DNA of 64,000 nt, taken from assembly GCA_009786125.1 (NCBI GenBank), contig WQTU01000138.1:12721-76720 (forward strand). The letters are read 5' to 3'. The DNA comes from Spirochaetota bacterium (GTDB lineage: Bacteria; Spirochaetota; Spirochaetia; CADAEX01). Below, piece by piece: positions 1,035 through 60,228 of the stretch. A program made the translations under genes and the position numbers. The notes beneath the pieces are model-generated. The model did no database searches. It was not told the DNA's origin and worked only from the letters and a program-made list of their open reading frames with translations. Position 1 is the first letter of the stretch. Every line of letters begins with the position of its first letter.

Positions 1035-2266
1035 TGAATAAAGTTTTAGCGCTGCTTCAGGAGCGCGGGTTTGTAAAACAGTGTACAAACCTGGAGCTTC
1101 TCGACAGCAAACTTACGAACAGCCAGCTTACATTTTACTGCGGATTTGATCCAACAGGACCAACTCTTCACGCAGGACACCTTGTCCCGCTTTTTGCAAT
1201 GGCGCATTTGAGCAAAGCCGGGCACAAGGCAATAGCTCTTGTTGGCGGCGGAACAGCAAGAATCGGAGACCCTTCCGGCAAAATAGAGATGAGAAAAATC
1301 ATCTCTAACGAAGAAGTAAAAGCAAATGCACAAAGCATTAAAAAGCAAATAGAAAAGTTTATAGACTTTAGCGAAAACAAAGCAATGCTTGTAGATAACG
1401 CAGACTGGCTTACGAATTTAAACTATATAGATTTTTTGCGCGAGATTGGCTGCCACTTTTCTGTAAACAGAATGCTTAGTTTTGAGACATATAAAAACAG
1501 GCTTGAGCATGGGCTTTCGTTTATTGAATTTAATTACCAGCTTTTGCAATCTTACGATTTTCTTGTTTTAAGAAGAAATTACAATTGCGAGATGCAGATA
1601 GGCGGAGATGATCAGTGGGGGAATATTGTTGCCGGCGCAGATCTTATAAGAAGAATGGATAGCAAAGAGGTTGTCGGACTTACTTTTCCTTTGGTAACGC
1701 GCTCGGATGGAAAGAAAATGGGAAAAACAGAAAAAGGCGCTCTTTTTCTTGATCCTAATGTTGTTTCTCCTTACGAATTTTTCCAGTATTGGAGAAATGT
1801 TGCAGATGCAGATGTTGAAAAATTTCTTTACCTTTATACATTTTTGCCCGGCGAGGAAATTCGGGAACTTGGAAAGCTTAAAGACCAGGAAATAAACAGG
1901 GCAAAAGAAATTCTTGCTTATGAGATAACGAAGATAATACATGGCGAAGAAGAGGCGGAAAAAGCAAAAGAAGCGGCAGGCGCTGCATTCGGCGGAGGAG
2001 CAGACGGAGATAAATCTTCGATTCCGTCGATAGAGATTCAGGAGTTTGAATTAACAGCAGGAATAAATGTTATTGACCTTTTTGCAAAAACAACTTTGTG
2101 TGAATCAAAAGCAGAAGCCAGAAGGCTGGTAACCCAGGGCGGAGCAGTGGTGTCCGAAGAAAAAATATCAAGCGTAGATGCTGTAATTGATTCTTCCTAT
2201 ATAAGGGATGGAGAAATTATGCTAAAAGCCGGAAAAAAAAGGTATTTTAGGTTAATTGTAAAATGA
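1034..2266 (+). CDS. tyrS: tyrosyl-tRNA synthetase
   Basis: HLGHL-type HIGH motif (LHAGHLVPL), KMGKTE (KMSKS) motif and a C-terminal S4-like domain; 410 aa. Confidence 0.95.
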   Translation: MNKVLALLQERGFVKQCTNLELLDSKLTNSQLTFYCGFDPTGPTLHAGHLVPLFAMAHLSKAGHKAIALVGGGTARIGDPSGKIEMRKIISNEEVKANAQSIKKQIEKFIDFSENKAMLVDNADWLTNLNYIDFLREIGCHFSVNRMLSFETYKNRLEHGLSFIEFNYQLLQSYDFLVLRRNYNCEMQIGGDDQWGNIVAGADLIRRMDSKEVVGLTFPLVTRSDGKKMGKTEKGALFLDPNVVSPYEFFQYWRNVADADVEKFLYLYTFLPGEEIRELGKLKDQEINRAKEILAYEITKIIHGEEEAEKAKEAAGAAFGGGADGDKSSIPSIEIQEFELTAGINVIDLFAKTTLCESKAEARRLVTQGGAVVSEEKISSVDAVIDSSYIRDGEIMLKAGKKRYFRLIVK

Positions 2267-3543
2267 GCCCAAAAAGACTTTTTGTCTCGATCGCGGCGCG
2301 CCAAGACACTGCGTTCGTGCTGCGCGCAAGACGCGGCATCCATGCCGCAATACTATTCTTTATTGTAATAGCGTATTCTCATGCACAAACGTCTGTGGAC
2401 AGCGAAGGCAGGTTTACGCCGATTTTTATGTATCCCGGTAACTTTCAGACAAGAACCGTATACAATCTAAGTATAAGGGAAAATAATAGATTTATTGCGC
2501 ATATGGTTAGGGAAGTGCGGGAAAGATATTCGCTTGTTGCGCAAACCGAGGATGAAAAAAAATTCGCAGGGACAGCCTTTATTTTTGAAACGCGGCAAAG
2601 GGGCGGGGTACCGGTTGCTAGGAGAATAGAGAATATAGTTAACGGAAGTTTTACTGTAGACCTGCATGGCGGTGTTGAAAGAGCGGATAACTCATATTTT
2701 CCTTTGCGCGTTGGGTTTCCTGTTTTTCCGAAAATGCAGGGCGTAAGACCCGGAGAAAGATGGATAGCAGAAGGCGAGCTTTTCGTAGACCCGCTGAGGA
2801 CCGGGCATTTTACAAGATTAAATATTATCGCGGAATACACATATACCGGGATAACGCACTTTCAGGGGATAGAGGTACATGCAATAACTGCGCAATACGC
2901 TTTGCGGTACCGCATGGGGGATGACCCGTACGGTGATGAGAATTTGCAAAGTGTTTCCGGCACGCACAGAATTACGATTTATCTTAGGACAGAAGACGCG
3001 CGGCCTTTTTTTATACAGAACAATATTACCGAAACTTATACGTTCGAAGGTTTAACTATTTCCAAACAGGGCTTTTCTCACACATGGTACACTGATGTAA
3101 CTCCAATGAGGCGCGATGTTGTAAAAAGGGGTCTTATGGACTCTATAATCGAAAGTACGCTGGATAACGAAGATTTCGAAATTACCGAAAGAGAAATTGG
3201 GGTCTCCTTAACTACCAGTAACATACATTTTGTTCCGGACAGCGCCGAGCTGCTGCCGGGCGAAAATCAAAAAATAGAGGTTATAGCTGCAATTTTGAGA
3301 AGAGTTCCGGACAGAACTTTTCTTGTTGTAGGCCATACTGCGGATGTTGGCACCAGAGAGAGCCAAATGACGCTTTCTGTGCAAAGAGCGGAAAGCATTG
3401 CCAGGCTTCTTACGCAGAGCGGTATAAGCGCAGAGAGAATTCTTTTTACAGGCAAAGGCGGAACCGAGCCGGCTGCGGATAACAGCATAGAAGAGGGGCG
3501 AGCCAGAAACCGCCGGGTTGAGATTATTATACTTGAGGATTAA
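2263..3543 (+). CDS. OmpA-family protein (C-terminal OmpA/MotB peptidoglycan-binding domain)
   Basis: The C-terminus (NIHFVPDSAELLP...LVVGHTADVGTRESQMTLSVQRAESIARLL...RRVEIIILE) is an OmpA-like domain; the N-terminus is hydrophobic. Confidence 0.75.
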   Translation: MSPKRLFVSIAARQDTAFVLRARRGIHAAILFFIVIAYSHAQTSVDSEGRFTPIFMYPGNFQTRTVYNLSIRENNRFIAHMVREVRERYSLVAQTEDEKKFAGTAFIFETRQRGGVPVARRIENIVNGSFTVDLHGGVERADNSYFPLRVGFPVFPKMQGVRPGERWIAEGELFVDPLRTGHFTRLNIIAEYTYTGITHFQGIEVHAITAQYALRYRMGDDPYGDENLQSVSGTHRITIYLRTEDARPFFIQNNITETYTFEGLTISKQGFSHTWYTDVTPMRRDVVKRGLMDSIIESTLDNEDFEITEREIGVSLTTSNIHFVPDSAELLPGENQKIEVIAAILRRVPDRTFLVVGHTADVGTRESQMTLSVQRAESIARLLTQSGISAERILFTGKGGTEPAADNSIEEGRARNRRVEIIILED

Positions 3544-8355: not shown

Positions 8356-8423
8356 ACCTTATTTACCGACAAAGCGAGAACCGCGGACAAGCTGCCTGGC
8401 GGTCGCTTTGCGCGTAATACCAT

Positions 8424-9080
8424 TTATTTTTTGTTATAAAACAGCGCATGTTCGTAATCTTCTTTTTTTAACCCTTTTATTCCGTGCAGCTTTTTTATAG
8501 TCTCCGGCGAGTCATCAACCCTAACCGGTACAAAGCCTAATTTTGCAGCAGAGGCATTTAATATCAAATTGTTGATGCTGGCTGCCGACTGCAATCTGCA
8601 GGCAAGGTTAATACCATATCCAATATAATCGCGGTACTTGAGCTGCGATATCTCGGCAGATATTTCGTACTTAAACACCTGTTCATTAACAAGCGCTCCT
8701 GCCAGCCCCATATCCGGGTATGACTTAAATAAATCTTTAGTTAAGAAATCTGTGTATGTATTAAATATGGCAAGCGCTTCCTCTGTCGAATATTTATCGT
8801 TCTTGTCCCAAATAACGAGCGCGCCGTCTCCCATAAGCTTGTAATATGAGCAGCCATGTCCAAAATGATTTATACAAGCCAAAAAGTTTGTTGTAAATTC
8901 CTTAATAAGCTTGCAAATGGCATCGCTTGTCTGGGATGATAAAAAATTGCTAAAATTACGAATATCGACGCATAGAATAAGCGCATTTTTACAGACTTTG
9001 TTTAAATATATGCCATCGAAAAGATCGATCGGCATTTTTTTAAGCCCGTCAAGGGAAGCAGTTTTTATTGCGGGTTTCAT
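8424..9080 (-). CDS. minimal class III nucleotidyl (adenylyl/guanylyl) cyclase-like protein, paralog 1
   Basis: Motifs LCVDIRNFSNF (FxDIxGFT-like, metal Asp), YKLMGDGALVIW (KxxGD, specificity Lys and second metal Asp) and YRDYIGYGINLACRLQS (DxxGxxVNxAxR, catalytic Asn/Arg); 218 aa, no other domains; own RBS aaaggag. Confidence 0.6.
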   Translation of the reverse strand: MKPAIKTASLDGLKKMPIDLFDGIYLNKVCKNALILCVDIRNFSNFLSSQTSDAICKLIKEFTTNFLACINHFGHGCSYYKLMGDGALVIWDKNDKYSTEEALAIFNTYTDFLTKDLFKSYPDMGLAGALVNEQVFKYEISAEISQLKYRDYIGYGINLACRLQSAASINNLILNASAAKLGFVPVRVDDSPETIKKLHGIKGLKKEDYEHALFYNKK

Positions 9081-9575: not shown

Positions 9576-12182
9576 TTAGATTAGTTTTTTTTCCACAGCG
9601 ATGCGAATTAGGTCTGCCAGGTTTTTAGCGCCTGCTTTTGAGTAGATCATGTTGATCACCATTTTTACAGTATTAATCGAAAGGTTGTGGTTTTCTGCAA
9701 TTTCTGCACGCGAAAGACCGTGGGAAAGATCCAGGAGGATTTCGGTCTCCCTTGTCGATAGAGCGATATTGTCTGTAATATGCTTGACCTGCTTGTATTC
9801 TGTAACTACATGAGCCTGGCGTTTGGCATAGGTCGCGGCTTTTCGGTTGATTTTTTCCAGCCATGCTTTTGGGATAGCCGAAGCTGTATGCCGAAGATTT
9901 AGATGTGGATTTATTTCTGTTCCAGCAATATTCGGCGCCGCGGCAACAGCAGCGCCGCCTTCCTTTGCTGCCGCAGAAGTAAGAGTGCGCATATCTTTGC
10001 CCAGTTCAATAAAAGGCATCACAATATCATTAGGCTCTGCTGCCTTATAAGCCTCCAGCAGAGCAGCAAAAGCTTTTTTTTTGTCCTTCAGTTTATAATG
10101 CACACAAGCTTCCATTGCCAGCATTTCTATCCTGCCAAAGAGAAACGACTCCCGCTGCTTCATTTCCTGAATATACGCAAGAAGAGGAGAAAAGTTTCTT
10201 GTCATATAACAAAAGCGCGCTTTTAGCTGATTCCCAAAATTTTCAGTAAAAGCAGCATGGTCATAGGAAGAAAAATTTTCTTTAAGCCAGGCAGGCACAT
10301 TTTCCGGCAGGTCCAGAGCATAGTAATACCATGCAAGAGAAATATCGTAATTGATATAACGATGAGTATATTCATTTTCATCCAACTGATTTTTTGTTTC
10401 TTTCAGCGCCATTTCTGCATTTTCAAAATCCCCTTGCGCAAAGCTTATTCGCAAAGTATAAAGCAAAGCCCTGTGTGCAAACTCAAACTGTTTGTGCTTT
10501 GCTGCAAGGGAGAAAGCAAGAGCAATAAATTTTTCTGCTTCGCGTAAATCTCCCTGGTAAAACTTTAGCTCTCCCTTTGCCAGCTCGCTCTCTCCTGTTT
10601 CAATGTTATTAAAGCAGAGCGAGATAAAGTTAGATGCGCGGGTTAATGCACCGATAAATTTTTCAATAGCCCCTTTTTTGGGAGTGCCAACGCCGCAGAT
10701 CCATGCTCCCGGGCAGCGATTCGCGTATTTGCTGGGATCTGTAGGTCCCAAAAGGCAGTTGTAATATTTTTCAAAGTAAAGGTCAAAATCAAAGTTGTCG
10801 TCTGTTAGGCTCACTAAAAGGCGCAGAAAACCCCAGCAGTAATAGAGACCGCCCAAAGTGCGCTTCCTGAAAAGGCTATTTTTTGGCAGTTTGATGAATT
10901 TTGCCTCATAATATTCTGCCAGCTCAAGCGATTTTTGCCAGAGCCCCAGGCACATATAGCAGCGCAAGTGCATTATAGCAAGGAATTCCACTGTATCAAA
11001 AACCTCCGAAGGAGCTCTTTCAAAAATTTTTATTGCATATTGCGCAATGTCCGCAGGTATTTGAGCAGGTAACGCAAAAAAAATAGATACTATAGAGCTG
11101 TAGCTTCCTGCTTTTTCATAATAAGAGAGAGCATCTATCTTAAAATAATTCTTGCTGCACCAATCACCGGCAATTAAGTAGGTTTTCCGCTTTTCTTCCG
11201 CCGAGAGGAGCTCTTGTCTTTCAGAGAGAAATTCCAATAACAGATGGTGGATAAGATATGCATTTATATAGCTGTCCCTGCGCACATACGCGCTTTGCTT
11301 TTCCAGCTCGGCAATAAGGCTATCGTCATTTTCTGCCAGAAGATCAATAAGTTCAAAAGAGAGGTGACCAATAAGGGAGAGACGCACCAAAAAATTCTGC
11401 AGCCGGACGGAGACCCCATCCCAAATTTCTGTTTCCATTAGCCGGAAGATACTCGTCTTCATGGCATTGCGCAAATAGCCTTCGTAACCCGGCGCTTTTT
11501 GATACGACCGTGCGATAAGGTTTATTGCAAAGACCCAGCCTTCTGTATCCTGCATGATTCCGTGCAGACAATCTGCCTGAAGAGGAATATTTAGCTTTTG
11601 GAAATATTGAGCAAGTTCATTTTCTGTAAAGCGCAAATCGTTTTCACTTATGTTGAATATCCGGTCTTTGGAAACAAGGCTTGCAATATTGATGGATGGG
11701 GTGGAGCGGGAAATTATAACTATCGAAGTTCCGGGCATATTATGGGAGACACACTCTTCGATAAAATGAATTATAGAAGGATTTTCGATAAAATGAAAAT
11801 CATCAAAAACAATAACTCGCCGTTTAATCTCAGCAAGATCATGCACCAGGGACATGTATTTATTTTTTTTGTCTCTGGTATCCGGAAAACCAAGCTTGCC
11901 AGCTGCTTTGGCAAAAGGCACATTAATTTGCGCAAGAGAATAAGTATAGTTTTCCCAAAACCGCCCCCCCGCATTATCGCGTTCGGAAAGCTGTATCCAT
12001 ATTGTTGCTGTCTTGTACTCCTGCGCAAAGTCAGCAACTGCGCTGGTCTTGCCGTAGCCTGTTCCAGCGCATACAACAACCAGCGGATGACGCACAGCTT
12101 CTGTGAACAATCGGTTTATTCGCGGGCGTTCTAAATGGAAAAGAGAGCGATTTTCGTGGTGCCTTTTGAGTTTGTCTTCCAT
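9576..12182 (-). CDS. MalT-like STAND NTPase / LuxR-family transcriptional regulator (P-loop NTPase, helical/TPR-like region, C-terminal LuxR HTH)
   Basis: N-terminus RINRLF...LVVVCAGTGYGKTS is a Walker A like the MalT N-terminus; 868 aa; C-terminus LSTRETEILLDLSHGLSRAEIAENHNLSINTVKMVINMIYSKAG is a LuxR-type HTH. Confidence 0.8.
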   Translation of the reverse strand: MEDKLKRHHENRSLFHLERPRINRLFTEAVRHPLVVVCAGTGYGKTSAVADFAQEYKTATIWIQLSERDNAGGRFWENYTYSLAQINVPFAKAAGKLGFPDTRDKKNKYMSLVHDLAEIKRRVIVFDDFHFIENPSIIHFIEECVSHNMPGTSIVIISRSTPSINIASLVSKDRIFNISENDLRFTENELAQYFQKLNIPLQADCLHGIMQDTEGWVFAINLIARSYQKAPGYEGYLRNAMKTSIFRLMETEIWDGVSVRLQNFLVRLSLIGHLSFELIDLLAENDDSLIAELEKQSAYVRRDSYINAYLIHHLLLEFLSERQELLSAEEKRKTYLIAGDWCSKNYFKIDALSYYEKAGSYSSIVSIFFALPAQIPADIAQYAIKIFERAPSEVFDTVEFLAIMHLRCYMCLGLWQKSLELAEYYEAKFIKLPKNSLFRKRTLGGLYYCWGFLRLLVSLTDDNFDFDLYFEKYYNCLLGPTDPSKYANRCPGAWICGVGTPKKGAIEKFIGALTRASNFISLCFNNIETGESELAKGELKFYQGDLREAEKFIALAFSLAAKHKQFEFAHRALLYTLRISFAQGDFENAEMALKETKNQLDENEYTHRYINYDISLAWYYYALDLPENVPAWLKENFSSYDHAAFTENFGNQLKARFCYMTRNFSPLLAYIQEMKQRESFLFGRIEMLAMEACVHYKLKDKKKAFAALLEAYKAAEPNDIVMPFIELGKDMRTLTSAAAKEGGAAVAAAPNIAGTEINPHLNLRHTASAIPKAWLEKINRKAATYAKRQAHVVTEYKQVKHITDNIALSTRETEILLDLSHGLSRAEIAENHNLSINTVKMVINMIYSKAGAKNLADLIRIAVEKKLI

Positions 12183-12967: not shown

Positions 12968-13029
12968 ATTATAAGGCTATACAAATATAGTTTTTTTTGC
13001 AATACGAAATTAAATAACCATTGTTTAGG

Positions 13030-13060
13030 AAACCGCTGATTTATTCAATCGAGAATAAAT
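13030..13060. repeat. partial inverted copy of the dispersed GC-rich repeat family
   Basis: ggaaaccgctgatttattcaatcgagaat is the reverse complement of attctcgattggataaatcagcggttccc at about 18868-18896. Confidence 0.5.
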
Positions 13061-13274
13061 CAGCAATACATTATTATCCTTTTTTCGCAGTTTTCTGCAA
13101 GAAAACGAGAAAAAATATGGAAGCACTGATTAGAGTCAAATAAGAACCTACTATGAGCCTATCATATATTTTGTCATTTACACAAAATATATGATAGGCT
13201 CCTATTAATGCCAGATGGCTAAAATAACACCTTTTATTTTGAATCAAAATTCCAAATCCGCAGTTTAGATAAGC

Positions 13275-13934
13275 ATGAAAAAACAAACATCAAAGTATAA
13301 TCATATTTTTAATATATCGCGACTAGAAGAAAAGTCGCAGGCTGTTATCGACTGGAAAAAGCAAATCTCCGAATGGTTGGCGCCTAAAAACCTATTGCAG
13401 GCAAAAGGAAAAACGAGAAAAGAAATATTTGCCTTGTTTGGCAATGAATATGAACCCATTGCCGCAATTCCTCTCAAATATCTCAAATATTTAGGCGATG
13501 ATATTACTAATCAAACAGTCTATTCCGGCAAAGGATATTTTATAGACCATGCAGTCAACCATCATCCGGAAGTAGATGCCGTGGAGTATCAAAAAATTCC
13601 AGATATTTTATCTAATCCAGATGATGTAAAGTTAGATAATAGAAAACCTTCTAGAAATTCCCTTGTTTTCATAAAAAAGCATGAAAAATATGATACAGCA
13701 GTAGTAAGTGTTGATACCACAGACGAAGGCAAGATTGTTATCCACAAAACATACTTTGTAAATAAAAAAAGCCCATATACTCAATTACAAAGTATATGGG
13801 CTAAATCGTCGGACGACGCAAACACGTCCATCAGTCATGCGGGAAACCCCGCATCCGCCGGAAAGCGATTTTCCGCTCTTGACGATACATCTTCACTATC
13901 ATCTAAAAATGACCAAAAGTCAAGCAAAACTTGA
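13275..13934 (+). CDS. hypothetical protein (orphan; Ser/Asp-rich C-terminal tail)
   Basis: 219-aa ORF transcribed divergently from cyclase paralog 2. The central block YFIDHAVNHHPEV...IPDILSNPDDVKLDNRKPSRNSLVFIKK...TAVVSVDTTDEGKIVIHKTYF looks like a small toxin/nuclease-type fold, but this is unconfirmed. Confidence 0.4.
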   Translation: MKKQTSKYNHIFNISRLEEKSQAVIDWKKQISEWLAPKNLLQAKGKTRKEIFALFGNEYEPIAAIPLKYLKYLGDDITNQTVYSGKGYFIDHAVNHHPEVDAVEYQKIPDILSNPDDVKLDNRKPSRNSLVFIKKHEKYDTAVVSVDTTDEGKIVIHKTYFVNKKSPYTQLQSIWAKSSDDANTSISHAGNPASAGKRFSALDDTSSLSSKNDQKSSKT

Positions 13935-14009
13935 AAAGCAGCAAAACTTTGTGCCTATATGCACGACTCAATGGCGACTTCGTGCCTTCGTGCGAACCAA
14001 ATTGTGCCC

Positions 14010-14180
14010 TTAGTGCCTTGCGGCATGGACGCCGCATCCCTGCGCAGCGGCATGGACGCCGCGAAACTAGCGCAGGGTCATGCTAACCTAATTGTGCTAA
14101 AAAGCTTAATAAACAGCAAAACCTTGTGTCTTAGCGCCTTGCGGCATGGACGCCGCGAAACTAGCGCAGGGTCATGCGAA
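14010..14180. repeat. cluster of GC-rich REP-like palindromes (gcggcATGGACgccgc x3; 35-45-bp unit x2)
   Basis: The unit ggcatggacgccgcgaaactagcgcagggtcatgc occurs at about 14050 and 14143; the 16-nt palindrome occurs three times; GC-rich in an AT-rich background. Confidence 0.7.
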
Positions 14181-14255
14181 GCATTGGCGTACCCCAAACC
14201 TGTCTCGATGGTTCAAATTTGTTACAAAAATTCAAAGAATTTGCAAAATTTTTTC

Positions 14256-14284
14256 TTGACGTGCAAAAATAGTGTTGCTATAAT
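14256..14284 (+). promoter_or_regulatory. sigma70-like promoter (TTGACG-17-TATAAT) for the outer membrane protein gene
   Basis: Near-consensus -35/-10 with a 17-nt spacer, about 75 nt upstream of the ATG; RBS gaaaggag. Confidence 0.5.
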
Positions 14285-14360
14285 TAATTGAAATTATTTT
14301 TACTAGAAGGGAATATGAAAGTCATAGGCTTTTACCCTAAATTTTGAAAGGAGAATAATA

Positions 14361-16287: not shown

Positions 16288-16395
16288 TTATTTCCAAATT
16301 GGGCGCGCAAGCCTATCTTCCTTGCCAATTTCACGCGCAGACTCCAGGCGCAGCTCAATATATTCCTCTCTGGCTATTTTCAATAGACTTTTCAT
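16288..16395 (-). pseudogene. degenerate third copy of the rpn C-terminal unit (35 codons; MKSLLKIAREEYIELRLESAREIGKEDRLARPIWK)
   Basis: My own translation; its start overlaps the stop of the 67-aa ORF (ATGA). Confidence 0.5.
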
Positions 16396-16595
16396 AACTT
16401 CTCTACTTCTTCGATGGGAAGTCCAACTCCTTCAGCTATTTGTTCAAGCGAAAGTCCCATAGCTTTGAATTTTCGAGCTGTTTCGAGCAATTTTTCTCTG
16501 CCTTCGGCAAGCCCTTCTTCCTTGCCAATTTCACGCGCAGATTCCAGGCGCAGTTCGATATACTCTTCTCTGGTTATTTTCAATAGGCTTTTCAT
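16392..16595 (-). CDS. stand-alone RpnS-like small protein (duplicate of the Rpn C-terminal domain)
   Basis: The 67-aa MKSLLKITREEYIELRLESAREIGKEEGLAEGREKLLETARKFKAMGLSLEQIAEGVGLPIEEVEKL is 64/67 aligned to the last 64 aa of Rpn; its ATG overlaps the rpn stop (ATGA). Confidence 0.6.
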   Translation of the reverse strand: MKSLLKITREEYIELRLESAREIGKEEGLAEGREKLLETARKFKAMGLSLEQIAEGVGLPIEEVEKL

Positions 16596-17548
16596 AACTT
16601 CTCTACTTCTTCGATGGGAAGTCCCGTTGCCTCTGCAATTTGCGATAAAGAAAGTCTCATAGTCTTGAGTTTTCGCGCTGTTTCGAGTTTTGCCTTGGCA
16701 AGCCCTTCTTCCTTGCCAATTTCACGCGCAGACTCCAGGCGCAGCTCAATATATTCCTCTCTGGTTATTTTCAATAGGCTTTTCATAACTTCCTCCCCGT
16801 GGGTTTCAAGAAACTTTCTTAATATATTATGTTCTATGCATTCCTTAATGGCAAGCCGAAAAGCTTCCTCAAGCTCTTCTTTTTTGGTTAAGCCTGCCTG
16901 CTTCTCCCTTACAATTTCAACGAATTTTGCAAACTCTCCCAAATCGCGATTTTTTGCCATGAGCCTCTTGTTATGTCCAAGGTTAATATTATACACTTTA
17001 ACCTCAAGTTCGAGATTATACTGGAGATTTGTACAAAAATTTATATTTGTTTCGACAACATCCGGTATACCTTCTTCTATCCCAGCTCTTTTTTTAAATG
17101 CTTGAGAAAGACGCAATGTTGTTTCTTCCGGATATGGCGCTTTGCCATTGTAAAACAAATAAAACTCGGGATTTGGGAGCTCAAGTCCCCGCTCTGCATA
17201 GAGTTCTTTGCGGAGAATCATTTTCTCATACAGAGCTGCTACGTATAACAAAAATCTAATAGGCATATTGGGATTAATAGTTGACTGATGCTCTATCAGG
17301 ACAATGGTTTTGTCGCCAATGGTAAAGGATATATCATTCTTTAAGCCTATGCCTAAGGTTTCCTGTAATGTGTTAATGGTCATTGGGGTTTCTTTGCTGT
17401 AAGAAGAGCCAGTAATGGTATTATAAAGCTCCCTTAGTTTGTTTTGGTCAGAAAACAGCATACAGAACACGCTGTCTTTGTATTTCTTATACTTTGATGT
17501 TTGTCTTTTCATATTACTAGTAACTGCGGATTTGGAAATTTGATTCAA
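16592..17548 (-). CDS. Rpn-family recombination-promoting nuclease / putative transposase (YhgA-like, PD-(D/E)XK)
   Basis: 318 aa with an N-terminal nuclease-like region and the characteristic C-terminal ...LSLSQIAEATGLPIEEVEKL tail. An internal GGAGG(N5)ATG sits at 16784-16798, at the start of the C-terminal 64 codons. Confidence 0.75.
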   Translation of the reverse strand: MNQISKSAVTSNMKRQTSKYKKYKDSVFCMLFSDQNKLRELYNTITGSSYSKETPMTINTLQETLGIGLKNDISFTIGDKTIVLIEHQSTINPNMPIRFLLYVAALYEKMILRKELYAERGLELPNPEFYLFYNGKAPYPEETTLRLSQAFKKRAGIEEGIPDVVETNINFCTNLQYNLELEVKVYNINLGHNKRLMAKNRDLGEFAKFVEIVREKQAGLTKKEELEEAFRLAIKECIEHNILRKFLETHGEEVMKSLLKITREEYIELRLESAREIGKEEGLAKAKLETARKLKTMRLSLSQIAEATGLPIEEVEKL

Positions 17549-18311: not shown

Positions 18312-18689
18312 AATTATATATTTTTCTCTTATATTCATTATACCTATATTATAAAAATATGGTATATCTCTTTTTTTAATTGCCCGCTATATGAAAAGGC
18401 ACCCATAAATGTTTAAAACACTACAAGATAAAAACTTTTTCAAAATGGTTAAAATATCATTTGATACTATAGGCTGGCCAAATGGAATTGATTTAGACCC
18501 AGAAATCCTTTATGAAAAATCGAACTTTGTCTAAAAGATAAATTACTCATTTTGACCTATCACTTTAAAGGTTTTGCAGTGGATTGGGGAAAGCCTGTCT
18601 GTTTTATTAACCTATGGAATCGCTGATTAGATTTGACTCTATCCATATTTTTCTTGTTTTCTTGCAGAAAACTGCGGCACTGCAAAGCA

Positions 18690-18950
18690 GACTGCGCTCG
18701 GTCGAAAAAAACATCGGCTGCGAAAAAAGGATACCGCAGCAAAGCTGCGTTTCCTTATTCGCTCGGTAATGTGCGTGCAAGCCCGCCCGCTACACTCGCT
18801 TCATTCGGAAATAAGGTAAAGCAAGCCCCGTTCGGGATGCTTTGCAATTCTCGATTGGATAAATCAGCGGTTCCCTGCCTTAGGAGCCGAGTGCCGCGGG
18901 CAAGCTGCCTGGTGGTCGCGAAGCGTACCCTTTATTGCGAAAGGATTATA
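18690..18950. repeat. composite copy of the dispersed GC-rich repeat family
   Basis: The first half resembles 53395-53460 (gtgcgtgcaagcccgcccgctacactcgcttcattcggaaataa); the second half resembles 8360-8425 (gcgggcaagctgcctggtggtcgcgaagcgtaccctttatt). Confidence 0.7.
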
Positions 18951-19184
18951 AAAAGCTCTTGAAATATGAAGCTATGTATTATACAGTTAAATATCAGGCC
19001 TTAAGATAGAAATGGAACAAGAGGATAGAGAAGTATTAACACGCCAAACGCATGAAATTTTGTAATTCATTACAGGATAAAGACTTAGCTGACATTGCAT
19101 TAAACCTATGTATTTTGTAATTCTTTGCCTTGTAAGAAGATAGCACAATTCATGCGTTTGACGTGCAAAAACTATCAAAAACAA

Positions 19185-19297: not shown

Positions 19298-19432
19298 TTC
19301 GAGGTCAAATATTAAATTCTTCAGGGCAGGGTGAAAGTCCCTACCGGTGGTAAAGCCCACGAGCCAAAAGGCAGATTCGGTGTGATTCCGAAGCCGACAG
19401 TCAGAGTCTGGATGAAAGAAGATTGACGCATT
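19298..19432 (+). ncRNA. FMN riboswitch (RFN element)
   Basis: TCTTCAGGGCAGGGTGAAAGTCCCTACCGGTGGTAAAGCCCACGAGC...GATTCGGTGTGATTCCGAAGCCGACAGTCAGAGTCTGGATGAAAGAAGA matches the RFN consensus; lies directly upstream of ribD. Confidence 0.9.
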
Positions 19433-19519
19433 TATAATATGCAGAAGCTCTGGGATATATCTATGTTCCGGAGCTTTTTTGTTGCCTGCTGCTGAAGAAC
19501 GTTGCGCGAAGGTGTATTG

Positions 19520-20866
19520 ATGAGTTTTGCAATGTATGAAAAATATATGCAAATTGCTTTGGAGCTTGCAGCTAAGGGCAAGGGAAGAGTTAATCCTAAC
19601 CCTATGGTTGGCGCTGTAATTGTAAAAGATGAAAGAATCATAGGGCAGGGGTTTCACGCAAAGTATGGCGGCGCTCATGCGGAGATAGAGGCATTAAGTG
19701 CTTGTTGCAGCAGCGATGCAGCTGGCGCAACATTGTACGTTACTCTTGAGCCGTGCTGTCATCATGGGAAAACTGCTCCGTGCACAGATGCTATAATCGC
19801 GAGTAAAATCTCAAAAGTTGTGATTGGGTGCATTGACCCTAATGCTCTTGTTAGCGGAAAAGGGATCGAGATTTTAAAGGCTCACGGAATTGAGGTTGAG
19901 ACAGGGATCCTTGAAAAAGAATGCAGGGATTTAAACGAAATATTTTTTTATTATACAAGAACAAAAAAACCATATGTGGTTATGAAATATGCAATGAGTG
20001 CTGATGGCAAAATTGCTACAAGCGGTGGGCAGTCGCAGTGGATAACAGGAGAATTGGCGCGCACTTCGACTCATAGGACGCGGGGTGAGTTGTCTGCAAT
20101 TATGGTTGGCACTGGAACTGTTCTTGCAGATGATCCTTTGCTTACGTGCAGGCTCTCGGATAGGGCGGCGGACAGGTTGCCGGGCGGGGCAGCGGAAATG
20201 GAGACAGGCAAGCGCAAGACAGAGGGTAGAAATCCTGTAAGGATTATTTGCGATACTTCTCTAAGAATACCGCTGGATTCAAGGATTGTCCAAACTGCAA
20301 GAACAGTTCCTACTATTGTGGCAACGGCACGGACGCCGTGCTCGGCGCAGCGACACGTGCAAAGCACGCGCAAAGCGAGTGCCGCTTGCGGGTACGGATG
20401 CCGCGAACGCGATAGCGGACAAGGGCAAGCGCCGGCTACAGCTTCACTTAATTGGGTTTCTGCTGCTTCTGGCGATGCTTCCGGGGCTTCGGGTGTTTGC
20501 AGGAATACAAAGAAAACGCAACTCGAAGCTTTGGGAATCCGGGTGCTCGAAACAAAAATAAGGGATTCGAAACTTGATCTGGAAGACTTAATGCAGCAGC
20601 TTGGAGAACTTGGAATCGACAGTATTCTTCTTGAAGGAGGCGGAACTTTAAACTACAGCGCGCTAGAGCAAGGGATTGTCCGCAAATTGCACATATATAT
20701 TGGAGCAAAAATATTTGGCGGCAAAGAGAGTCTTTCTCCTGTAGAAGGTCTGGGTATAAAAAATATCTCAGACGCTATCGCACTAAAGCTGACTAACGTT
20801 AGCGCAATAGGCGAAGATGTTCTGCTTGAATATGAAGTGGGGGAAACAGAGTGTTTACAGGAATAG
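19520..20866 (+). CDS. ribD: bifunctional riboflavin biosynthesis protein RibD (deaminase/reductase) carrying GC-rich in-frame insertions
   Basis: Deaminase motifs HAEIEAL and PCxHHGKTAPC; reductase C-terminus (LLEGGGTLNYS). ATG at 19520 with RBS aaggtg. The ORF is about 90 aa longer than usual because of the low-complexity segments at about 20150-20228 and 20326-20502. Confidence 0.9.
   Translation: MSFAMYEKYMQIALELAAKGKGRVNPNPMVGAVIVKDERIIGQGFHAKYGGAHAEIEALSACCSSDAAGATLYVTLEPCCHHGKTAPCTDAIIASKISKVVIGCIDPNALVSGKGIEILKAHGIEVETGILEKECRDLNEIFFYYTRTKKPYVVMKYAMSADGKIATSGGQSQWITGELARTSTHRTRGELSAIMVGTGTVLADDPLLTCRLSDRAADRLPGGAAEMETGKRKTEGRNPVRIICDTSLRIPLDSRIVQTARTVPTIVATARTPCSAQRHVQSTRKASAACGYGCRERDSGQGQAPATASLNWVSAASGDASGASGVCRNTKKTQLEALGIRVLETKIRDSKLDLEDLMQQLGELGIDSILLEGGGTLNYSALEQGIVRKLHIYIGAKIFGGKESLSPVEGLGIKNISDAIALKLTNVSAIGEDVLLEYEVGETECLQE
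20326..20502. repeat. GC-rich repeat-like in-frame insertion inside ribD
   Basis: Contains ggcacggacgccgtgc, gggtacggatgccgcg and gcggacaagggcaagcgccggc motifs related to the intergenic GC-rich repeats (for example gcggcatggacgccgc and cgcggacaagctgcctggcggtcgc); encodes ...TPCSAQRHVQSTRKASAACGYGCRERDSGQGQAPATASLNWVSAASGDASGASGVCRNTK... Confidence 0.55.
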
Positions 20867-21581: not shown

Positions 21582-22193
21582 ATGTCATTTAGCACTATTG
21601 AGGAAGCAATAACGGATATAAAAGACGGCAAAATGATTATCGTTACAGATGACCCGGAGAGGGAAAACGAAGGAGACCTTATTTGCGCTGCAAAGTATGC
21701 GACGCCTCAGATTATTAATTTTATGGCAAGCAAAGGAAAGGGGCTTATCTGTATGCCAATGGCTGCAAAATGGATTAAGAAGCTCGATCTTCCCCAAATG
21801 GTAGAAAATAATACTGATCCACACGCAACAGCTTTTACTGTTACCATTGACCATGTTGATACAGGCACAGGAATCTCTGCTTTTGAGCGTTCCTTAACAG
21901 CGATAAAGTGCACAGAGCTTGACGCAAAGCCCGAGGATTTCCGAAGACCCGGCCATATGTTTCCGCTCGAGGCAAGGGATGGCGGCGTGCTTGTCAGGTG
22001 CGGGCACACAGAAGCGACTGTTGATTTTGTGCGGCTGGCCGGGCTTCCGGAAGTAGGGCTTTGCTGCGAAATTATGGACGATGACGGCACAATGATGCGG
22101 GGTTCCAAGCTTGCTGTTTTTGCAAAAGAGTACGGCATTAAGTTGGTAACGATTAAAGACCTTGTGGCTTACAGAAAGAAAAATAATGTATGA
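21582..22193 (+). CDS. ribB: 3,4-dihydroxy-2-butanone-4-phosphate synthase
   Basis: [37 protein letters not shown]... ; 203 aa. Confidence 0.9.
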
Positions 22194-22257: not shown

Positions 22258-22863
22258 ATGTATATATGTGAACTGATGGAGCGTGTGACAAGTGCGAATC
22301 TTCCTACGCGATATGGTGATTTTACCATATATGGCTATGTAAACAAAAAAAGCAAGGAGCATCATATTGCGCTAACAGTTGGCGATGTAACTGGCGGTTT
22401 GCCGGTGCTGGTAAGAGTGCACTCAGAGTGTTTTACGGGCGATATTTTGGGTTCTGCCAAGTGCGATTGCGGGGATCAGTATGATAAAGCTATGCGTGCA
22501 ATTCAGAAAGAGGGGCGGGGTGTTCTGGTTTACTTGCGTCAGGAGGGCAGGGGCATTGGGCTTATCAATAAACTAAAAGCATATTCGTTACAGGACAAAG
22601 GAATGGATACAGTCGATGCTAATCTTGCGCTGGGGTTTTCTGCGGACAGCAGGGATTATACTGAGGGTGCAGAAATTCTGGTTGACCTGGGTGTTAAAAA
22701 GATCAGGCTGATGACAAACAACCCGCAGAAAATAGCAGGGCTCGAAAAGTTCGGGCTTGAGATTATAGAAAGAGTTATAATCGAAACAGAGCAGAAAGAG
22801 CATTGCAAAAACTATATGCAGACAAAAAAGAATAAGATGGGGCACATGCTTGCCCAATACTAA
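22258..22863 (+). CDS. ribA: GTP cyclohydrolase II
   Basis: [20 protein letters not shown] (zinc Cys triad) ... [16 protein letters not shown]; the start codon is uncertain (22258 or 22276). Confidence 0.88.
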
Positions 22864-30741: not shown

Positions 30742-31665
30742 TTGGATAACCCTACAATTGGTATAAGAATTGCTAATGGAACATTTTTCCCAATTTTGAA
30801 AGAAGATGACAGAGCTAAAAAAAGGCTCGTTCTTTCTCCTGTAAAAGAAAAGCAAAAAGATGTTAAAATCGATATTTTTAGGGGAGAAGGAGAGGGGATG
30901 TACGACCCTGTCTATGTTGGAAGTCTCATCCTTAATAATATTAATCATAAAGGCGGAAAAGTTCCGGATATTGAACTTCTGATAAGCGTAAGCGACGCTG
31001 GCATACTTGATGTGCAGGCATCTGAGCCAATATCAGGTGTTAAACAGTTTTTATCTGTAAGCCTTGATTCAATTGATAGCAATATTGACTTTTATAATAC
31101 ACAGGACTCTGGCGATTCGGTTGATGCTCCGCGTTTTTCATCTGATTTTGATGAAGATCCAGGCATGGATAATGAGGACGAAGAGAGCGAAGAGGCAAGA
31201 TGGGGTTATGATGCTGAAAAAGATAATAAAAAGAAAAAAACTACTAAAATAGCAGTGATAGTATTAATAGTTTTGTTATTGCTTTTACTGGGTTTTCTTA
31301 TCTTTACACTTATTGCGAAACCTGCTCTTGCAAAAAGAGCTGAGCAAAGAGCTGCAGAGAGTGCTGTTGCAGTTGTTCCTGAGGCAAGGGAGCCGGAACG
31401 AGCCGCGCCTGTTGCGGTGCCGCAGCCGGAACCAGTTCGTGCGGCAGAACCAGAGCCTGCGGCTGTAGCAGAACCAACTCCTGCTGAGCCGGAAAGAACC
31501 GCCGAATATATAAGGTACAGGATAGTATGGGGCGATACCCTTTGGGATATTTCAAATACATTCTATAGAACTCCGTGGCTCTATAGAAGAATCGCCAGAG
31601 ATAATAATATCAGGAATCCGGATCGTATCTACGCGGGGAATTGGTTAATAATAAAAGCAGAATAA
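30742..31665 (+). CDS. LysM domain membrane protein with Pro/Glu/Ala-rich linker
   Basis: C-terminal LysM (YRIVWGDTLWDISNTFYRTPWLYRRIARDNNIRNPDRIYAGNWLII); one TM (IAVIVLIVLLLLLLGFLIF); PEP/AAEP repeats. Confidence 0.7.
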   Translation: MDNPTIGIRIANGTFFPILKEDDRAKKRLVLSPVKEKQKDVKIDIFRGEGEGMYDPVYVGSLILNNINHKGGKVPDIELLISVSDAGILDVQASEPISGVKQFLSVSLDSIDSNIDFYNTQDSGDSVDAPRFSSDFDEDPGMDNEDEESEEARWGYDAEKDNKKKKTTKIAVIVLIVLLLLLLGFLIFTLIAKPALAKRAEQRAAESAVAVVPEAREPERAAPVAVPQPEPVRAAEPEPAAVAEPTPAEPERTAEYIRYRIVWGDTLWDISNTFYRTPWLYRRIARDNNIRNPDRIYAGNWLIIKAE

Positions 31666-49500: not shown

Positions 49501-49692
49501 TATATTACTTTATGGCGTTTTGTCAAATTTTATACACGACAAACGCATGAATTATGAAGGCAAGGAATTAATAGCATTTAATGCAATGTCAGCTAAGTCT
49601 TTACCCTGTAATGAGTTACAAAATTTCATGCGTTTGGTGTGATTATTTATAATACCTACAATCAGATTTTTTGTAAAATTAAAGGTGTTTTT

Positions 49693-60110: not shown

Positions 60111-60112
60111 AT

Positions 60113-60228
60113 ATTCCTACTTTCTCCGAAATTGCCTTGGTGTTCTACTTGTTTATGAGCTCAGACACTTATTCCTACTTTCTCCGAAATTGCCTTGGTG
60201 TTCTACTTGTTTATGAGCTCAGACACTT
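60113..60228. repeat. perfect tandem duplication, 2 x 58 bp (attcctactttctccgaaattgccttggtgttctacttgtttatgagctcagacactt)
   Basis: Seen directly. Unit 1 abuts the response-regulator start codon and contains its SD (ggagaaag on the minus strand). Confidence 0.95.

What the first reader, a model, noticed from the sequence alone, without database searches (positions are those of the whole stretch)
20150..20502. GC-rich repeat-like segments inserted in frame inside ribD, lengthening the enzyme by about 90 aa
RibD here is 454 aa, against about 360 aa typically. Two GC-rich stretches (about 20150-20228 and 20326-20502) encode low-complexity linkers (RLSDRAADRLPGGAAEMETGKRKTEG and TPCSAQRHVQSTRKASAACGYGCRERDSGQGQAPATASLNWVSAASGDASGASGVCRNTK). 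These fall where deaminase and reductase modules join, or at a surface loop. Their sequence resembles the intergenic palindromic repeats (ggcacggacgccgtgc, gcggacaagggcaagcgccggc). This parallels in-frame palindromic-element insertions described in Rickettsia. Because reading frame and downstream motifs are preserved, the enzyme is probably still functional.
Basis: partly seen in the sequence, partly recalled or inferred. Interest (0 to 1): 0.65.

Follow-up and report, generated by a model that had tools for sequence, protein, structure and literature searches.

The report
Hairpin repeat inserted in-frame in ribD
A riboflavin-synthesis gene of an uncultivated spirochete carries, without losing its reading frame, a copy of a small GC-rich hairpin repeat that is scattered between genes and inside several other genes of related bacteria, so this is the kind of "selfish DNA inside proteins" best known from Rickettsia, now seen in another phylum with a different element.

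Summary
ribD (19520-20866, 448 aa) has two in-frame GC-rich extras that its closest relatives (68-77% identical, 364-381 aa) lack. They are ins1, about 20156-20224, and ins2, 20323-20436 (114 nt, 69% GC in a 38.6% GC window).

ins2 is a diverged, composite copy of a dispersed repeat. The repeat is a doublet of 5-bp GC hairpins with AYGGAY loops, plus a second module. Models built without ribD find ins2 (nhmmer E 9e-6; covariance model 28.5 bits, E about 3e-5). The family's three stems show covariation.

Other copies lie between genes in this window. Others lie in frame in three M24 peptidases, a CheA linker and a signal peptide. In two of the peptidases, relatives show the empty site.

AlphaFold gives a normal RibD fold (TM 0.90 to RibG), with low confidence only at the two inserts.

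ins1 matches no repeat model, so its origin is open.

The closest known parallels are the Rickettsia palindromic elements and the TwoAYGGAY RNA motif, whose Rfam score cut-off is not reached. I rate it a new variant of a known kind. How the element moves, and whether its CsrA-site-like loops do anything, was not tested.

The parts
19313..19427 (+). FMN riboswitch aptamer upstream of ribD
   Evidence: Rfam RF00050, 114.7 bits
19520..20866 (+). ribD coding sequence (448 aa from ATG; stop included), a bifunctional deaminase/reductase
   Evidence: Pfam dCMP_cyt_deam_1 and RibD_C. PDB RibG/RibD E 3e-80. Identical protein P0001 in three assemblies. AF2 model TM 0.90 to RibG.
20156..20224 (+). ins1: in-frame GC-rich extra segment (SDRAADRLPGGAAEMETGKRKTE) after the conserved LLTCR motif. 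Origin unresolved. A possibly native LPGG sits in its middle.
   Evidence: Absent from relatives. 67% GC. pLDDT low over 213-238. No hit to the doublet HMM or CM. Weak antisense match to family B, p about 0.03.
20323..20436 (+). ins2: in-frame copy (114 nt, 38 codons) of the dispersed AYGGAY-hairpin repeat, in a composite A-B-A form. GGC precedes both junctions.
   Evidence: DNA alignment with relatives. blastn to L043 over 83 nt, E 2.5e-9, and to L094. nhmmer. CM R1 built without ribD, 28.5 bits, E about 3e-5. pLDDT 34-43.
20324..20339 (+). Hairpin A of ins2: ACGGC-ACGGAC-GCCGT. The outer pair is A-T instead of the family's G-C, changed on both sides.
   Evidence: Alignment A3 and pair counts (column pair 21-36 GC:14, AU:1)
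20355..20379 (+). B module of ins2: ACGTGCAAAGCACGCGCAAAGCGAG
   Evidence: 93-97% identical to L094 4532-4561 and 2706-2734. Family-B HMM 10.1 bits, 0 of 1000 shuffles.
20388..20404 (+). Hairpin B of ins2: GCGG-GTACGGATG-CCGC, containing ACGGAT. It is followed by a GAACGCGATAGCGGACAAGGG tail that resembles the family's GATAAAGCGC..GGG arm.
   Evidence: Read from the sequence. Aligned to L043 and L076 copies. Marginal HMM score for this 3' part, p 0.024.
20437..20502 (+). Native variable loop of the lineage (ATASLNWVSAASGDASGASGVC), not part of the element
   Evidence: Aligns with the loop of relatives P0004 and P0008
14010..14086 (+). Intergenic canonical doublet element (two GCGGC-ATGGAC-GCCGC hairpins plus an 8-bp stem)
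   Evidence: 73.3 bits; this copy is in the training set
14106..14180 (+). Second, partial intergenic copy of the element
   Evidence: CM 25.8 bits, E 1.3e-4. nhmmer.
2285..2358 (-). Doublet element in antisense orientation inside gene 2263-3543. It lengthens the N-terminal region of the signal peptide of an OmpA-family protein (that family assignment is read from the sequence, not tested).
   Evidence: nhmmer E 4e-8 with a model that did not include it. The open frame runs through it. The closest homologue P0257 (59% identity) lacks about 18-20 N-terminal residues.
8359..8425 (-). Family-B GC-rich intergenic repeat (ACGCGCAAAGCGACCGCCAGGCAGCTTGTCCGCGG), related to the B module of ins2
   Evidence: (D8)
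18872..18941 (-). Second family-B copy, in the repeat-rich region upstream of the rib operon
   Evidence: (D8)

Best explanation
ribD of this uncultivated Spirochaetota bacterium has been colonised by a small GC-rich dispersed repeat.

The element. Its basic unit is about 56-60 nt: hairpin 1 (GCGRC-AYGGAY-GYCGC), a linker arm, hairpin 2 of the same kind, GAUAAA, and the complement of the linker arm, which forms an 8-bp stem around hairpin 2. A second module (ACGTGCAAAGCACGCGCAAAGCGAG) can be combined with it.

The ribD copy. ins2 is a 114-nt composite copy (hairpin, truncated second hairpin, B module, hairpin, tail). It sits between a beta-strand (PTIVAT) and the following helix of the reductase domain. 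It adds 38 residues that are predicted with low confidence, and it leaves the frame, the catalytic motifs and the fold intact.

How such copies persist (inferred). Copies land anywhere. Those that disrupt genes are lost. Survivors inside genes have a length divisible by three, no stop codon, and sit in permissive loops, linkers or signal peptides. The element is stop-free in about 83% of copy-by-frame combinations, so this filter is easy to pass.

Shown versus inferred:
- Shown: homology of ins2 to the family, empty sites in relatives, in-frame copies in other genes, covariation in the family's stems.
- Inferred: that the insert is translated and tolerated, that RibD is active, and that the element is or was mobile.
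- Unknown: the transposition or copying mechanism.

ins1 may be an older decayed copy or an ordinary loop expansion. That is unresolved.
For: Insert present here, absent in relatives:
- Relatives at 68-77% identity lack both segments.
- None of the 120 best RibD hits has a comparable insert. The three long ones are N-terminal mis-calls through the riboswitch.

Homology of ins2 to the repeat family:
- blastn to L043 3603-3680, 83 nt, E 2.5e-9; to L094 4532-4561, 97%; to L094 2706-2734, 93%. None of these sites was selected by the search pattern.
- nhmmer with ins2 as query gives E 6.6e-5 and 1.5e-4.
- The doublet HMM built without ribD hits 20311-20357 at E 8.7e-6, scoring 19.8 bits against a maximum of 6.0 in 500 shuffles.
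- CM R1 built without ribD gives 28.5 bits, E about 3e-5.
- A gapped alignment to the window's own array at 14043-14178 scores 31.6, against 21.95 +/- 1.8 for shuffles, with 0 of 200 reaching it.

The family is structured: 92.6% of cells are paired, 11 of 18 pairs change on both sides, 0 of 500 shuffles reach this, and slid controls give 22-54% paired.

In-frame copies elsewhere:
- M24 peptidase P0137 has a 50-aa insert that 11 relatives lack. It shares the peptide STR(K/N)ASA(A/N)CG with RibD.
- M24 peptidase P0142 carries a canonical doublet of about 60 nt (nhmmer 5e-15), while L108 shows the empty site.
- Further copies lie in a CheA linker and in another M24-like gene, and in the window gene 2263-3543.

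Protein:
- AF2 with a 120-sequence alignment gives pLDDT 84.9, low only over 213-238 and 271-330.
- Foldseek gives TM 0.90 to RibG.
- All invariant RibD columns are kept.
- The rib operon and FMN riboswitch are intact.

Not an assembly artefact: the identical protein occurs in one ENA and two Logan assemblies.

Stop-free frames: 70 of 84 copy-by-frame combinations are open, against 57% expected at the same GC content.
Against: - ins1 matches none of the models.
- ins2 is diverged. Its second hairpin and the enclosing stem are broken, and as a whole it folds no better than shuffles (z -1.2).
- No copy closer than about 73% over 83 nt was found, so there is no sign of a recent event.
- No transposase, terminal inverted repeats or convincing target-site duplication were found. 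Only GGC at both junctions, which could be chance.
- The six-frame peptide search of 5.8 billion proteins found only RibD itself, although that search could detect only near-identical full-length copies.
- The rest of this genome could not be searched, because it is not in genome contigs.
- The outside loci were picked with a pattern that ins2 itself matches, so the share of copies lying inside genes is not an unbiased estimate.
- The scoring scheme was chosen after the pattern had been seen.
Confidence: 0.85

Rival explanations
1. Ordinary lineage-specific loop expansion. The two sites are hypervariable surface loops that grew by slippage, duplication and drift, and the GC richness and hairpin resemblance are incidental.
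For: Both sites vary in length among relatives. P0005 has +7 aa and about +20 aa, and P0004 and P0008 have small extras. ins1 matches no repeat model. Within-window BLAST similarity is not significant. An LPGG resembling the relatives' IPGG sits in the middle of ins1.
Against: For ins2 it is contradicted by significant hits from models that never saw ribD and by an 83-nt colinear match to an insert in an unrelated gene of another genome.
Confidence: 0.05
2. Selected RNA element rather than selfish passenger. The AYGGAY hairpins on the sense strand of the ribD mRNA are kept because they bind a regulator (CsrA-type, GGA in a hexaloop closed by AC..GU) or stabilise the transcript, and the peptide is a by-product.
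For: The family's stems covary, which points to selection on structure. Hairpin 2 consensus GCGACAYGGAUGUCGC matches 10 of 12 positions of the SELEX CsrA consensus RUACARGGAUGU, with the same six-base loop and AC/GU closure (PMC7652899). AYGGAY loops of TwoAYGGAY RNAs have been proposed as Csr/Rsm sites (preprint 10.64898/2026.09.22.753630). Hairpin A of ins2 keeps its pairing through a change on both sides.
Against: Copies occur in both orientations relative to genes; the copy at 2285-2358 is antisense. In ribD the second hairpin and the enclosing stem are decayed. No CsrA gene or binding data were examined. Covariation could equally reflect the needs of a copying mechanism. This reading does not exclude the main explanation.
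Confidence: 0.15
3. Artefact: an assembly chimera, or a decaying pseudogene whose open frame is accidental.
For: The source is a metagenome-assembled genome. The flanks are repeat-rich, and the Logan contigs end about 450 nt upstream of ribD.
Against: The identical 448-aa product occurs in three assemblies. The frame stays open over 1,347 nt in a 38.6% GC genome. All invariant residues are retained. The fold is predicted with confidence outside the inserts. The operon and riboswitch are intact.
Confidence: 0.02

Closest known systems
Rickettsia palindromic elements (RPEs; Ogata et al. 2000, 2002, as summarised in PMC10969869)
   Same: Both are dispersed palindromic repeats found between genes and, in frame, inside many unrelated protein-coding genes. 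The hosts are AT-rich genomes. The insertions sit at positions compatible with the fold, and orthologues without the insert exist.
   Different: RPEs are about 100-150 bp, belong to defined alphaproteobacterial families, and each encodes a conserved peptide. This element is a 56-60-nt GC-rich hairpin doublet (114 nt in composite form), occurs in Spirochaetota, and is read in different frames in different genes. No sequence relationship to RPEs was tested or is expected.
TwoAYGGAY RNA motif (Rfam RF01731; Weinberg et al. 2010; preprint 10.64898/2026.09.22.753630)
   Same: Both have two consecutive hairpins with AYGGAY terminal loops and are multi-copy and often clustered. The preprint reports mobile-element-like copy-number variation and 1,693 of 16,086 hits inside annotated CDS.
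   Different: The Rfam model scores 24.9 bits on the best outside copy, against a gathering score of 43, and finds nothing in the window copy. Here the long stem encloses only the second hairpin rather than both. The known hosts are Pseudomonadota and Bacillota. In-frame insertion has not been analysed for that family.
REP/BIME and REPIN elements of Proteobacteria
   Same: They are short GC-rich imperfect palindromes, modular (mosaic) in their combinations, dispersed, and usually extragenic.
   Different: REPs are tied to RAYT transposases and carry a GTAG or CGTC tag (PMC3733652). Neither was looked for successfully here. REPs are defined as extragenic, whereas several of these copies lie inside genes.
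GC clusters of yeast mitochondrial DNA (from my own knowledge, not checked here)
   Same: They are mobile GC-rich palindromic clusters in a very AT-rich genome, including in-frame copies within the var1 coding sequence.
   Different: They are organellar and eukaryotic, and the sequence family is unrelated.

Membership tests
In-frame dispersed palindromic repeats (the RPE-like class, defined by behaviour) | Multi-copy dispersed repeat family | tested here: met
   Four copies in the 64-kb window and about 20 in 124 kb of other low-GC loci
In-frame dispersed palindromic repeats (the RPE-like class, defined by behaviour) | Copies inside unrelated protein-coding genes with the frame preserved | tested here: met
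   RibD, M24 peptidases P0137 and P0142, an M24-like gene in L042, a CheA linker, and an OmpA-family signal peptide
In-frame dispersed palindromic repeats (the RPE-like class, defined by behaviour) | Orthologues with the empty site | tested here: met
   ribD in L005, L006 and L007. M24 peptidases P0139-P0141, P0143, P0144, P0146 and L108.
In-frame dispersed palindromic repeats (the RPE-like class, defined by behaviour) | Hairpin or palindromic structure | tested here: met
   For the family: 92.6% paired and 11 of 18 covarying pairs. For ins2 only partly: hairpin A is intact, but whole-insert folding is not better than shuffles.
In-frame dispersed palindromic repeats (the RPE-like class, defined by behaviour) | Insert lies at a position compatible with the fold | tested here: met
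   The AF2 core is confident and the inserts are low-pLDDT loops. TM 0.90 to RibG. This is a prediction, not a structure.
Rickettsia RPE families proper | Sequence homology to one of the RPE families | not tested
Size, composition and host differ, so membership is not claimed.
TwoAYGGAY RNA (RF01731) | Two hairpins with AYGGAY terminal loops | tested here: met
   Alignments A3 and A5. Loops are ATGGAC, ACGGAC and ATGGAT.
TwoAYGGAY RNA (RF01731) | Score at or above Rfam's gathering threshold (43 bits) | tested here: not met
   24.9 bits, E 0.068, on L020. No match in window 13900-14300 or in six loci.
TwoAYGGAY RNA (RF01731) | Both hairpins emerge from one common basal stem | tested here: not met
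   The covarying 8-bp stem encloses hairpin 2 only. An upstream arm that could enclose hairpin 1 exists in only some copies.
MITE | Terminal inverted repeats and target-site duplication | tested here: inconclusive
   No terminal inverted repeats were recognised. GGC occurs at both ribD junctions and GCA near both L106 junctions, which could be chance.
REP/RAYT | Associated RAYT (IS200/IS605-like) gene and a GTAG/CGTC tag | not tested
   The window's ORFs were not screened for transposases, and the rest of the genome was unavailable.
RibD bifunctional deaminase/reductase | Zinc-deaminase domain plus RibD_C reductase domain with conserved residues and fold | tested here: met
   Pfam. PDB. Invariant columns kept. 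Foldseek TM 0.90.
CsrA/Rsm binding site | GGA in a six-base hairpin loop closed by AC..GU (SELEX consensus RUACARGGAUGU) | tested here: met
   Met at sequence level only. The consensus GCGACAYGGAUGUCGC matches 10 of 12 positions (PMC7652899).
CsrA/Rsm binding site | Actual binding by the organism's CsrA | not testable with these tools
   Needs EMSA or RIP-seq. The presence of csrA in this genome was not checked.

The most novel reading that the evidence does not exclude
The AYGGAY hairpin doublet is a mobile CsrA-binding module. By copying itself into leaders (for example between the FMN riboswitch and ribD in relative L005) and into coding regions in the sense orientation (ribD here), it would place genes under, or titrate, CsrA-type post-transcriptional control. 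The 'TwoAYGGAY RNAs' of other phyla would then be the same kind of selfish regulatory cassette.
Probability: 0.12. Interest if true: 0.85.

Novelty: new variant of a known kind. Interest (0 to 1): 0.62.

Why it matters
In-frame colonisation of genes by palindromic repeats has been called a unique but recurrent feature of Rickettsia. A clear second case would show it to be a general outcome of repeat proliferation in AT-rich genomes, and this one is in a different phylum, with a much smaller GC-rich element read in several frames. It also gives natural 'insertion tolerance' maps for enzymes such as RibD and the M24 peptidases.

The element shares the two-AYGGAY-hairpin design of a widespread RNA motif whose function is unknown. 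The intragenic and empty-site pairs found here therefore offer a direct handle on whether that design is a mobile element, a regulator-binding module, or both.

For annotation, it explains over-long proteins and spurious N-terminal extensions in these MAGs.

Tried and rejected
1. Short-word BLAST of the inserts against the window. The best hits had E 0.15-4 and were not above dinucleotide shuffles (ins1 p 0.29, ins2 p 0.13).
2. Folding of the inserts. z = -0.5 and -1.2, so there is no exceptional stability.
3. ins1 against ins2. Local alignment p about 0.05, not decisive.
4. A concatenated six-frame translation of both inserts against 5.8 billion proteins. Only RibD itself was found. The E-value scale of that database can detect only near-identical long copies.
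5. A genome-contig scan with a 21-mer of the intergenic repeat. It gave three chance hits in 59-68% GC genomes, so this MAG is not in that collection.
6. The metagenome pattern scan. Most of the 95 loci are chance matches in GC-rich genomes, and only the 8 low-GC loci are relevant.
7. The ins1 hit to L036 9722-9758 (E 0.026) lies in an ordinary sensor-domain coding region, so it is chance.
8. Rfam gave no family at gathering threshold other than FMN and tRNAs. The TwoAYGGAY and Bacillaceae-1 hits were only sub-threshold.
9. The first AF2 run, with 14 sequences, was too shallow (pLDDT 63.9) and was replaced by the 120-sequence run.
10. An intein, an intron, or a segment captured from another gene were considered. 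They were dropped on size, on the lack of any protein match in any frame, and on the repeat homology.
11. Other GC-rich islands in the window (ffh G domain, ribB core, a PAPE-rich linker at 31347-31506) are ordinary coding sequence, not elements.
Full report
**What is there.** The window has 38.6% G+C. The rib operon starts with an FMN riboswitch (19313-19427, 114.7 bits), followed by ribD. The mechanical ORF is 19502-20866 (454 aa from TTG). The ATG at 19520 gives the 448-aa product deposited as MCL2295291.1, from a MAG named 'Spirochaetes/Spirochaetota bacterium'. The identical protein is encoded on one ENA contig of 105.8 kb and on two independent Logan contigs, so the sequence is not a one-off assembly error. 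Pfam finds the zinc deaminase domain and RibD_C, the latter split into two stretches. Against B. subtilis RibG, query residues 220-242 and 278-335 have no partner.

**Comparison with relatives.** The 11 closest RibD proteins (68-77% identical over aligned columns) are 364-381 aa long once three N-terminal mis-calls that run through the riboswitch are discounted. All of them lack the two segments. A DNA alignment with four relatives' genes (L004-L007) sets the boundaries:
- ins1 is about 20156-20224.
- ins2 is 20323-20436, which is 114 nt or 38 codons. GGC precedes both junctions.
- 20437-20502 aligns with the relatives' own variable loop, so it is not part of the insert.

ins1 is 67% G+C and ins2 is 69%. 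The ins2 region holds the most GC-rich 100 nt of the window. High G+C alone is not diagnostic, because conserved cores of ffh and ribB also exceed 0.65 over 60 nt.

**Is ins2 a repeat? Evidence from the window alone.** Inside the window, ordinary BLAST similarity to the intergenic GC-rich repeats is not above shuffles. The inserts also fold no better than shuffles. A gapped alignment did place ins2 colinearly on the intergenic array at 14043-14178. It scored 31.6, against 21.95 +/- 1.8 for shuffles, and 0 of 200 shuffles reached it. The scoring scheme was chosen after I had seen the pattern.

**Is ins2 a repeat? Evidence from outside copies.** The genome is not in the GTDB-based collection. 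A pattern scan of metagenome contigs returned mostly chance hits in GC-rich genomes. It also returned eight low-GC loci carrying an obvious repeat: two 16-nt hairpins, GCGRC-AYGGAY-GYCGC, 26 nt apart, joined by arms that pair with each other.

In those loci, at places that the pattern did not select, ins2 finds:
- L043 3603-3680 (83 nt, 73% identity, E 2.5e-9);
- L094 4532-4561 (30 nt, 97%);
- L094 2706-2734 (29 nt, 93%) (nhmmer).

Models built without any ribD sequence also find ins2:
- A profile HMM of 11 doublets hits window 20311-20357 at E 8.7e-6. It scores 19.8 bits, against a maximum of 6.0 in 500 shuffles.
- A covariance model of 14 doublets scores 20314-20384 at 28.5 bits, E about 3e-5. 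That is the best non-training hit in the window.
- The middle of ins2 (ACGTGCAAAGCACGCGCAAAGCGAG) belongs to a second family, 'B', with copies at window 8359-8425 and 18872-18941, in L094 and in L036. It scores 10.1 bits, and 0 of 1000 shuffles reach that.

ins2 is therefore a composite, diverged copy of dispersed repeats. Hairpin A (20324-20339) is intact, and its outer pair changed from G-C to A-T on both sides. The second hairpin and the enclosing stem are decayed.

**The element family.** On 15 copies, the three proposed helices are paired in 92.6% of cells. Eleven of 18 pairs change on both sides, no shuffle out of 500 reaches this, and sliding the partners drops pairing to 22-54%. The structure is therefore under selection, or is required for copying.

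Rfam's closest family is TwoAYGGAY (RF01731), but only at 24.9 bits against a gathering score of 43. It finds nothing in the window's own copy. The long stem here encloses only hairpin 2. I therefore treat the element as similar in design to TwoAYGGAY, not as a member.

A 2026 preprint describes TwoAYGGAY RNAs as multi-copy and mobile-element-like. It reports 1,693 of 16,086 hits inside CDS, and it recalls the proposal that AYGGAY loops bind Csr/Rsm proteins. The hairpin-2 consensus GCGACAYGGAUGUCGC matches 10 of 12 positions of the SELEX CsrA consensus RUACARGGAUGU, with the same six-base loop closed by AC/GU. This is a sequence resemblance only.

**In-frame copies in other genes.**
- The L043 copy lies inside a 465-aa M24 peptidase (P0137). 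Eleven relatives of 388-427 aa show that about 50 residues are extra at a strand-turn-strand position. The peptide there (ARSTRNASANCGTD) is the same reading of the repeat as in RibD (QSTRKASAACGYG).
- A relative, P0142 (L106), carries at the same site a textbook doublet of about 60 nt (nhmmer 5e-15), read in another frame. L108 shows the empty site, TTTTT-GCA-AAAGG.
- Further copies sit within long open frames: in the linker after the Hpt domain of a CheA kinase (L036), and in another M24-like gene (L042).
- In this window, an antisense copy at 2285-2358 lengthens the N-terminal region of the signal peptide of gene 2263-3543. The nearest homologue, at 59% identity, lacks about 18-20 residues there.
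- The core of the element is free of stop codons in 70 of 84 copy-by-frame combinations, against 57% expected for its G+C content and 27% at genome composition. This explains why in-frame survival is easy.

These loci were found with a pattern that ins2 itself matches. The proportion of copies inside genes is therefore not an estimate for any genome.

**The protein.** With a 120-sequence alignment, AlphaFold2 gives mean pLDDT 84.9 and pTM 0.84. Confidence is low only over residues 213-238 (ins1) and 271-330 (ins2 plus the native loop). Both lie inside the reductase domain. ins1 follows the LLTCR motif, before strand 240-244. ins2 lies between strand 265-270 and helix 324-337. Foldseek's best matches are RibG and RibD, with TM 0.90 on the target's length. 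All invariant RibD columns are kept. That the enzyme is active, and that the extra residues form exposed flexible loops, is inference.

**ins1.** No model detects it. Its best outside hit is chance similarity to a sensor-domain gene. An antisense match of 16 of 19 bases to the family-B core is reached by 2.9% of shuffles, and it partly overlaps what may be the native LPGG codons. Its similarity to ins2 has p about 0.05. It may be a decayed element or an ordinary loop expansion, and I leave it open.

**Verdict.** Its central interpretation, an RPE-like in-frame insertion of a GC-rich palindromic repeat, is right for the larger segment and unproven for the smaller one. The phenomenon is of a known kind (PMC10969869). 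The element, its host phylum, its small size, its multi-frame use and its kinship in design with the TwoAYGGAY motif are, as far as the searched literature shows, undescribed. The mechanism of spread, and any RNA-level function, remain untested.

Noticed in passing
L005:9869-9998 (relative's rib leader; FMN aptamer at L005:9646-9760, ribD start at 10001): Two tandem doublet elements sit between the FMN riboswitch aptamer and the ribD start codon of a relative. They lengthen the leader from about 90 nt (as in this window) to about 240 nt, and might interfere with or add to riboswitch control.
   Followed up: partly
window 21582-22193 and 22258-22863: DHBP synthase (RibB) and GTP cyclohydrolase II (RibA) are separate genes with a 64-nt gap instead of the common fused RibBA. 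The same split is seen in relatives L005 and L007, so it is a lineage trait and not a frameshift.
   Followed up: partly
window 19032-19181 and 49519-49646: An AT-rich element of about 140 nt with internal inverted repeats is present twice, in opposite orientations (arms 93% complementary). The two Logan contigs that carry ribD end about 450 nt upstream of ribD, which by my coordinate arithmetic falls in this repeat; it looks MITE-like.
   Followed up: no
L108:4711-5994 (M24 peptidase P0145): A different 37-aa in-frame insert (AAHISQPAYPVPAIGGMLRKPASGQQRCEAGSNKCSA) lies a few residues away from the site used by the AYGGAY element. Its DNA contains a 9-bp inverted repeat (CCTGCTTCG ... CGAAGCAGG), so a second palindromic family may also enter genes in frame.
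   Followed up: no
window 18648-18876 versus 13027-13114: Two short blocks (29 and 30 nt, 93-97% complementary) are adjacent-ish at 13 kb but are separated by about 170 nt of 50-54% GC sequence at 18.7 kb. This suggests nested insertion of GC-rich DNA into another intergenic repeat.
   Followed up: no
window 60112-60227: A perfect tandem duplication of a 58-nt unit.
   Followed up: no
window 16307-16792: Three copies (91-96% identical) of a 95-nt segment, spaced about 200 nt apart, lie in a run of small tandem minus-strand genes next to a HicA/DUF1902 pair (by my coordinate mapping from locus L001).
   Followed up: no
L004:526-1890 (RibD P0005): This relative has small inserts at both of the same sites, and both contain a DTHG motif (PDTHGG and ADTHGE; DNA CCCATGGCGG and CTCACGGAGA). 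They may be worn-down AYGGAY hairpins. No model detects them.
   Followed up: partly
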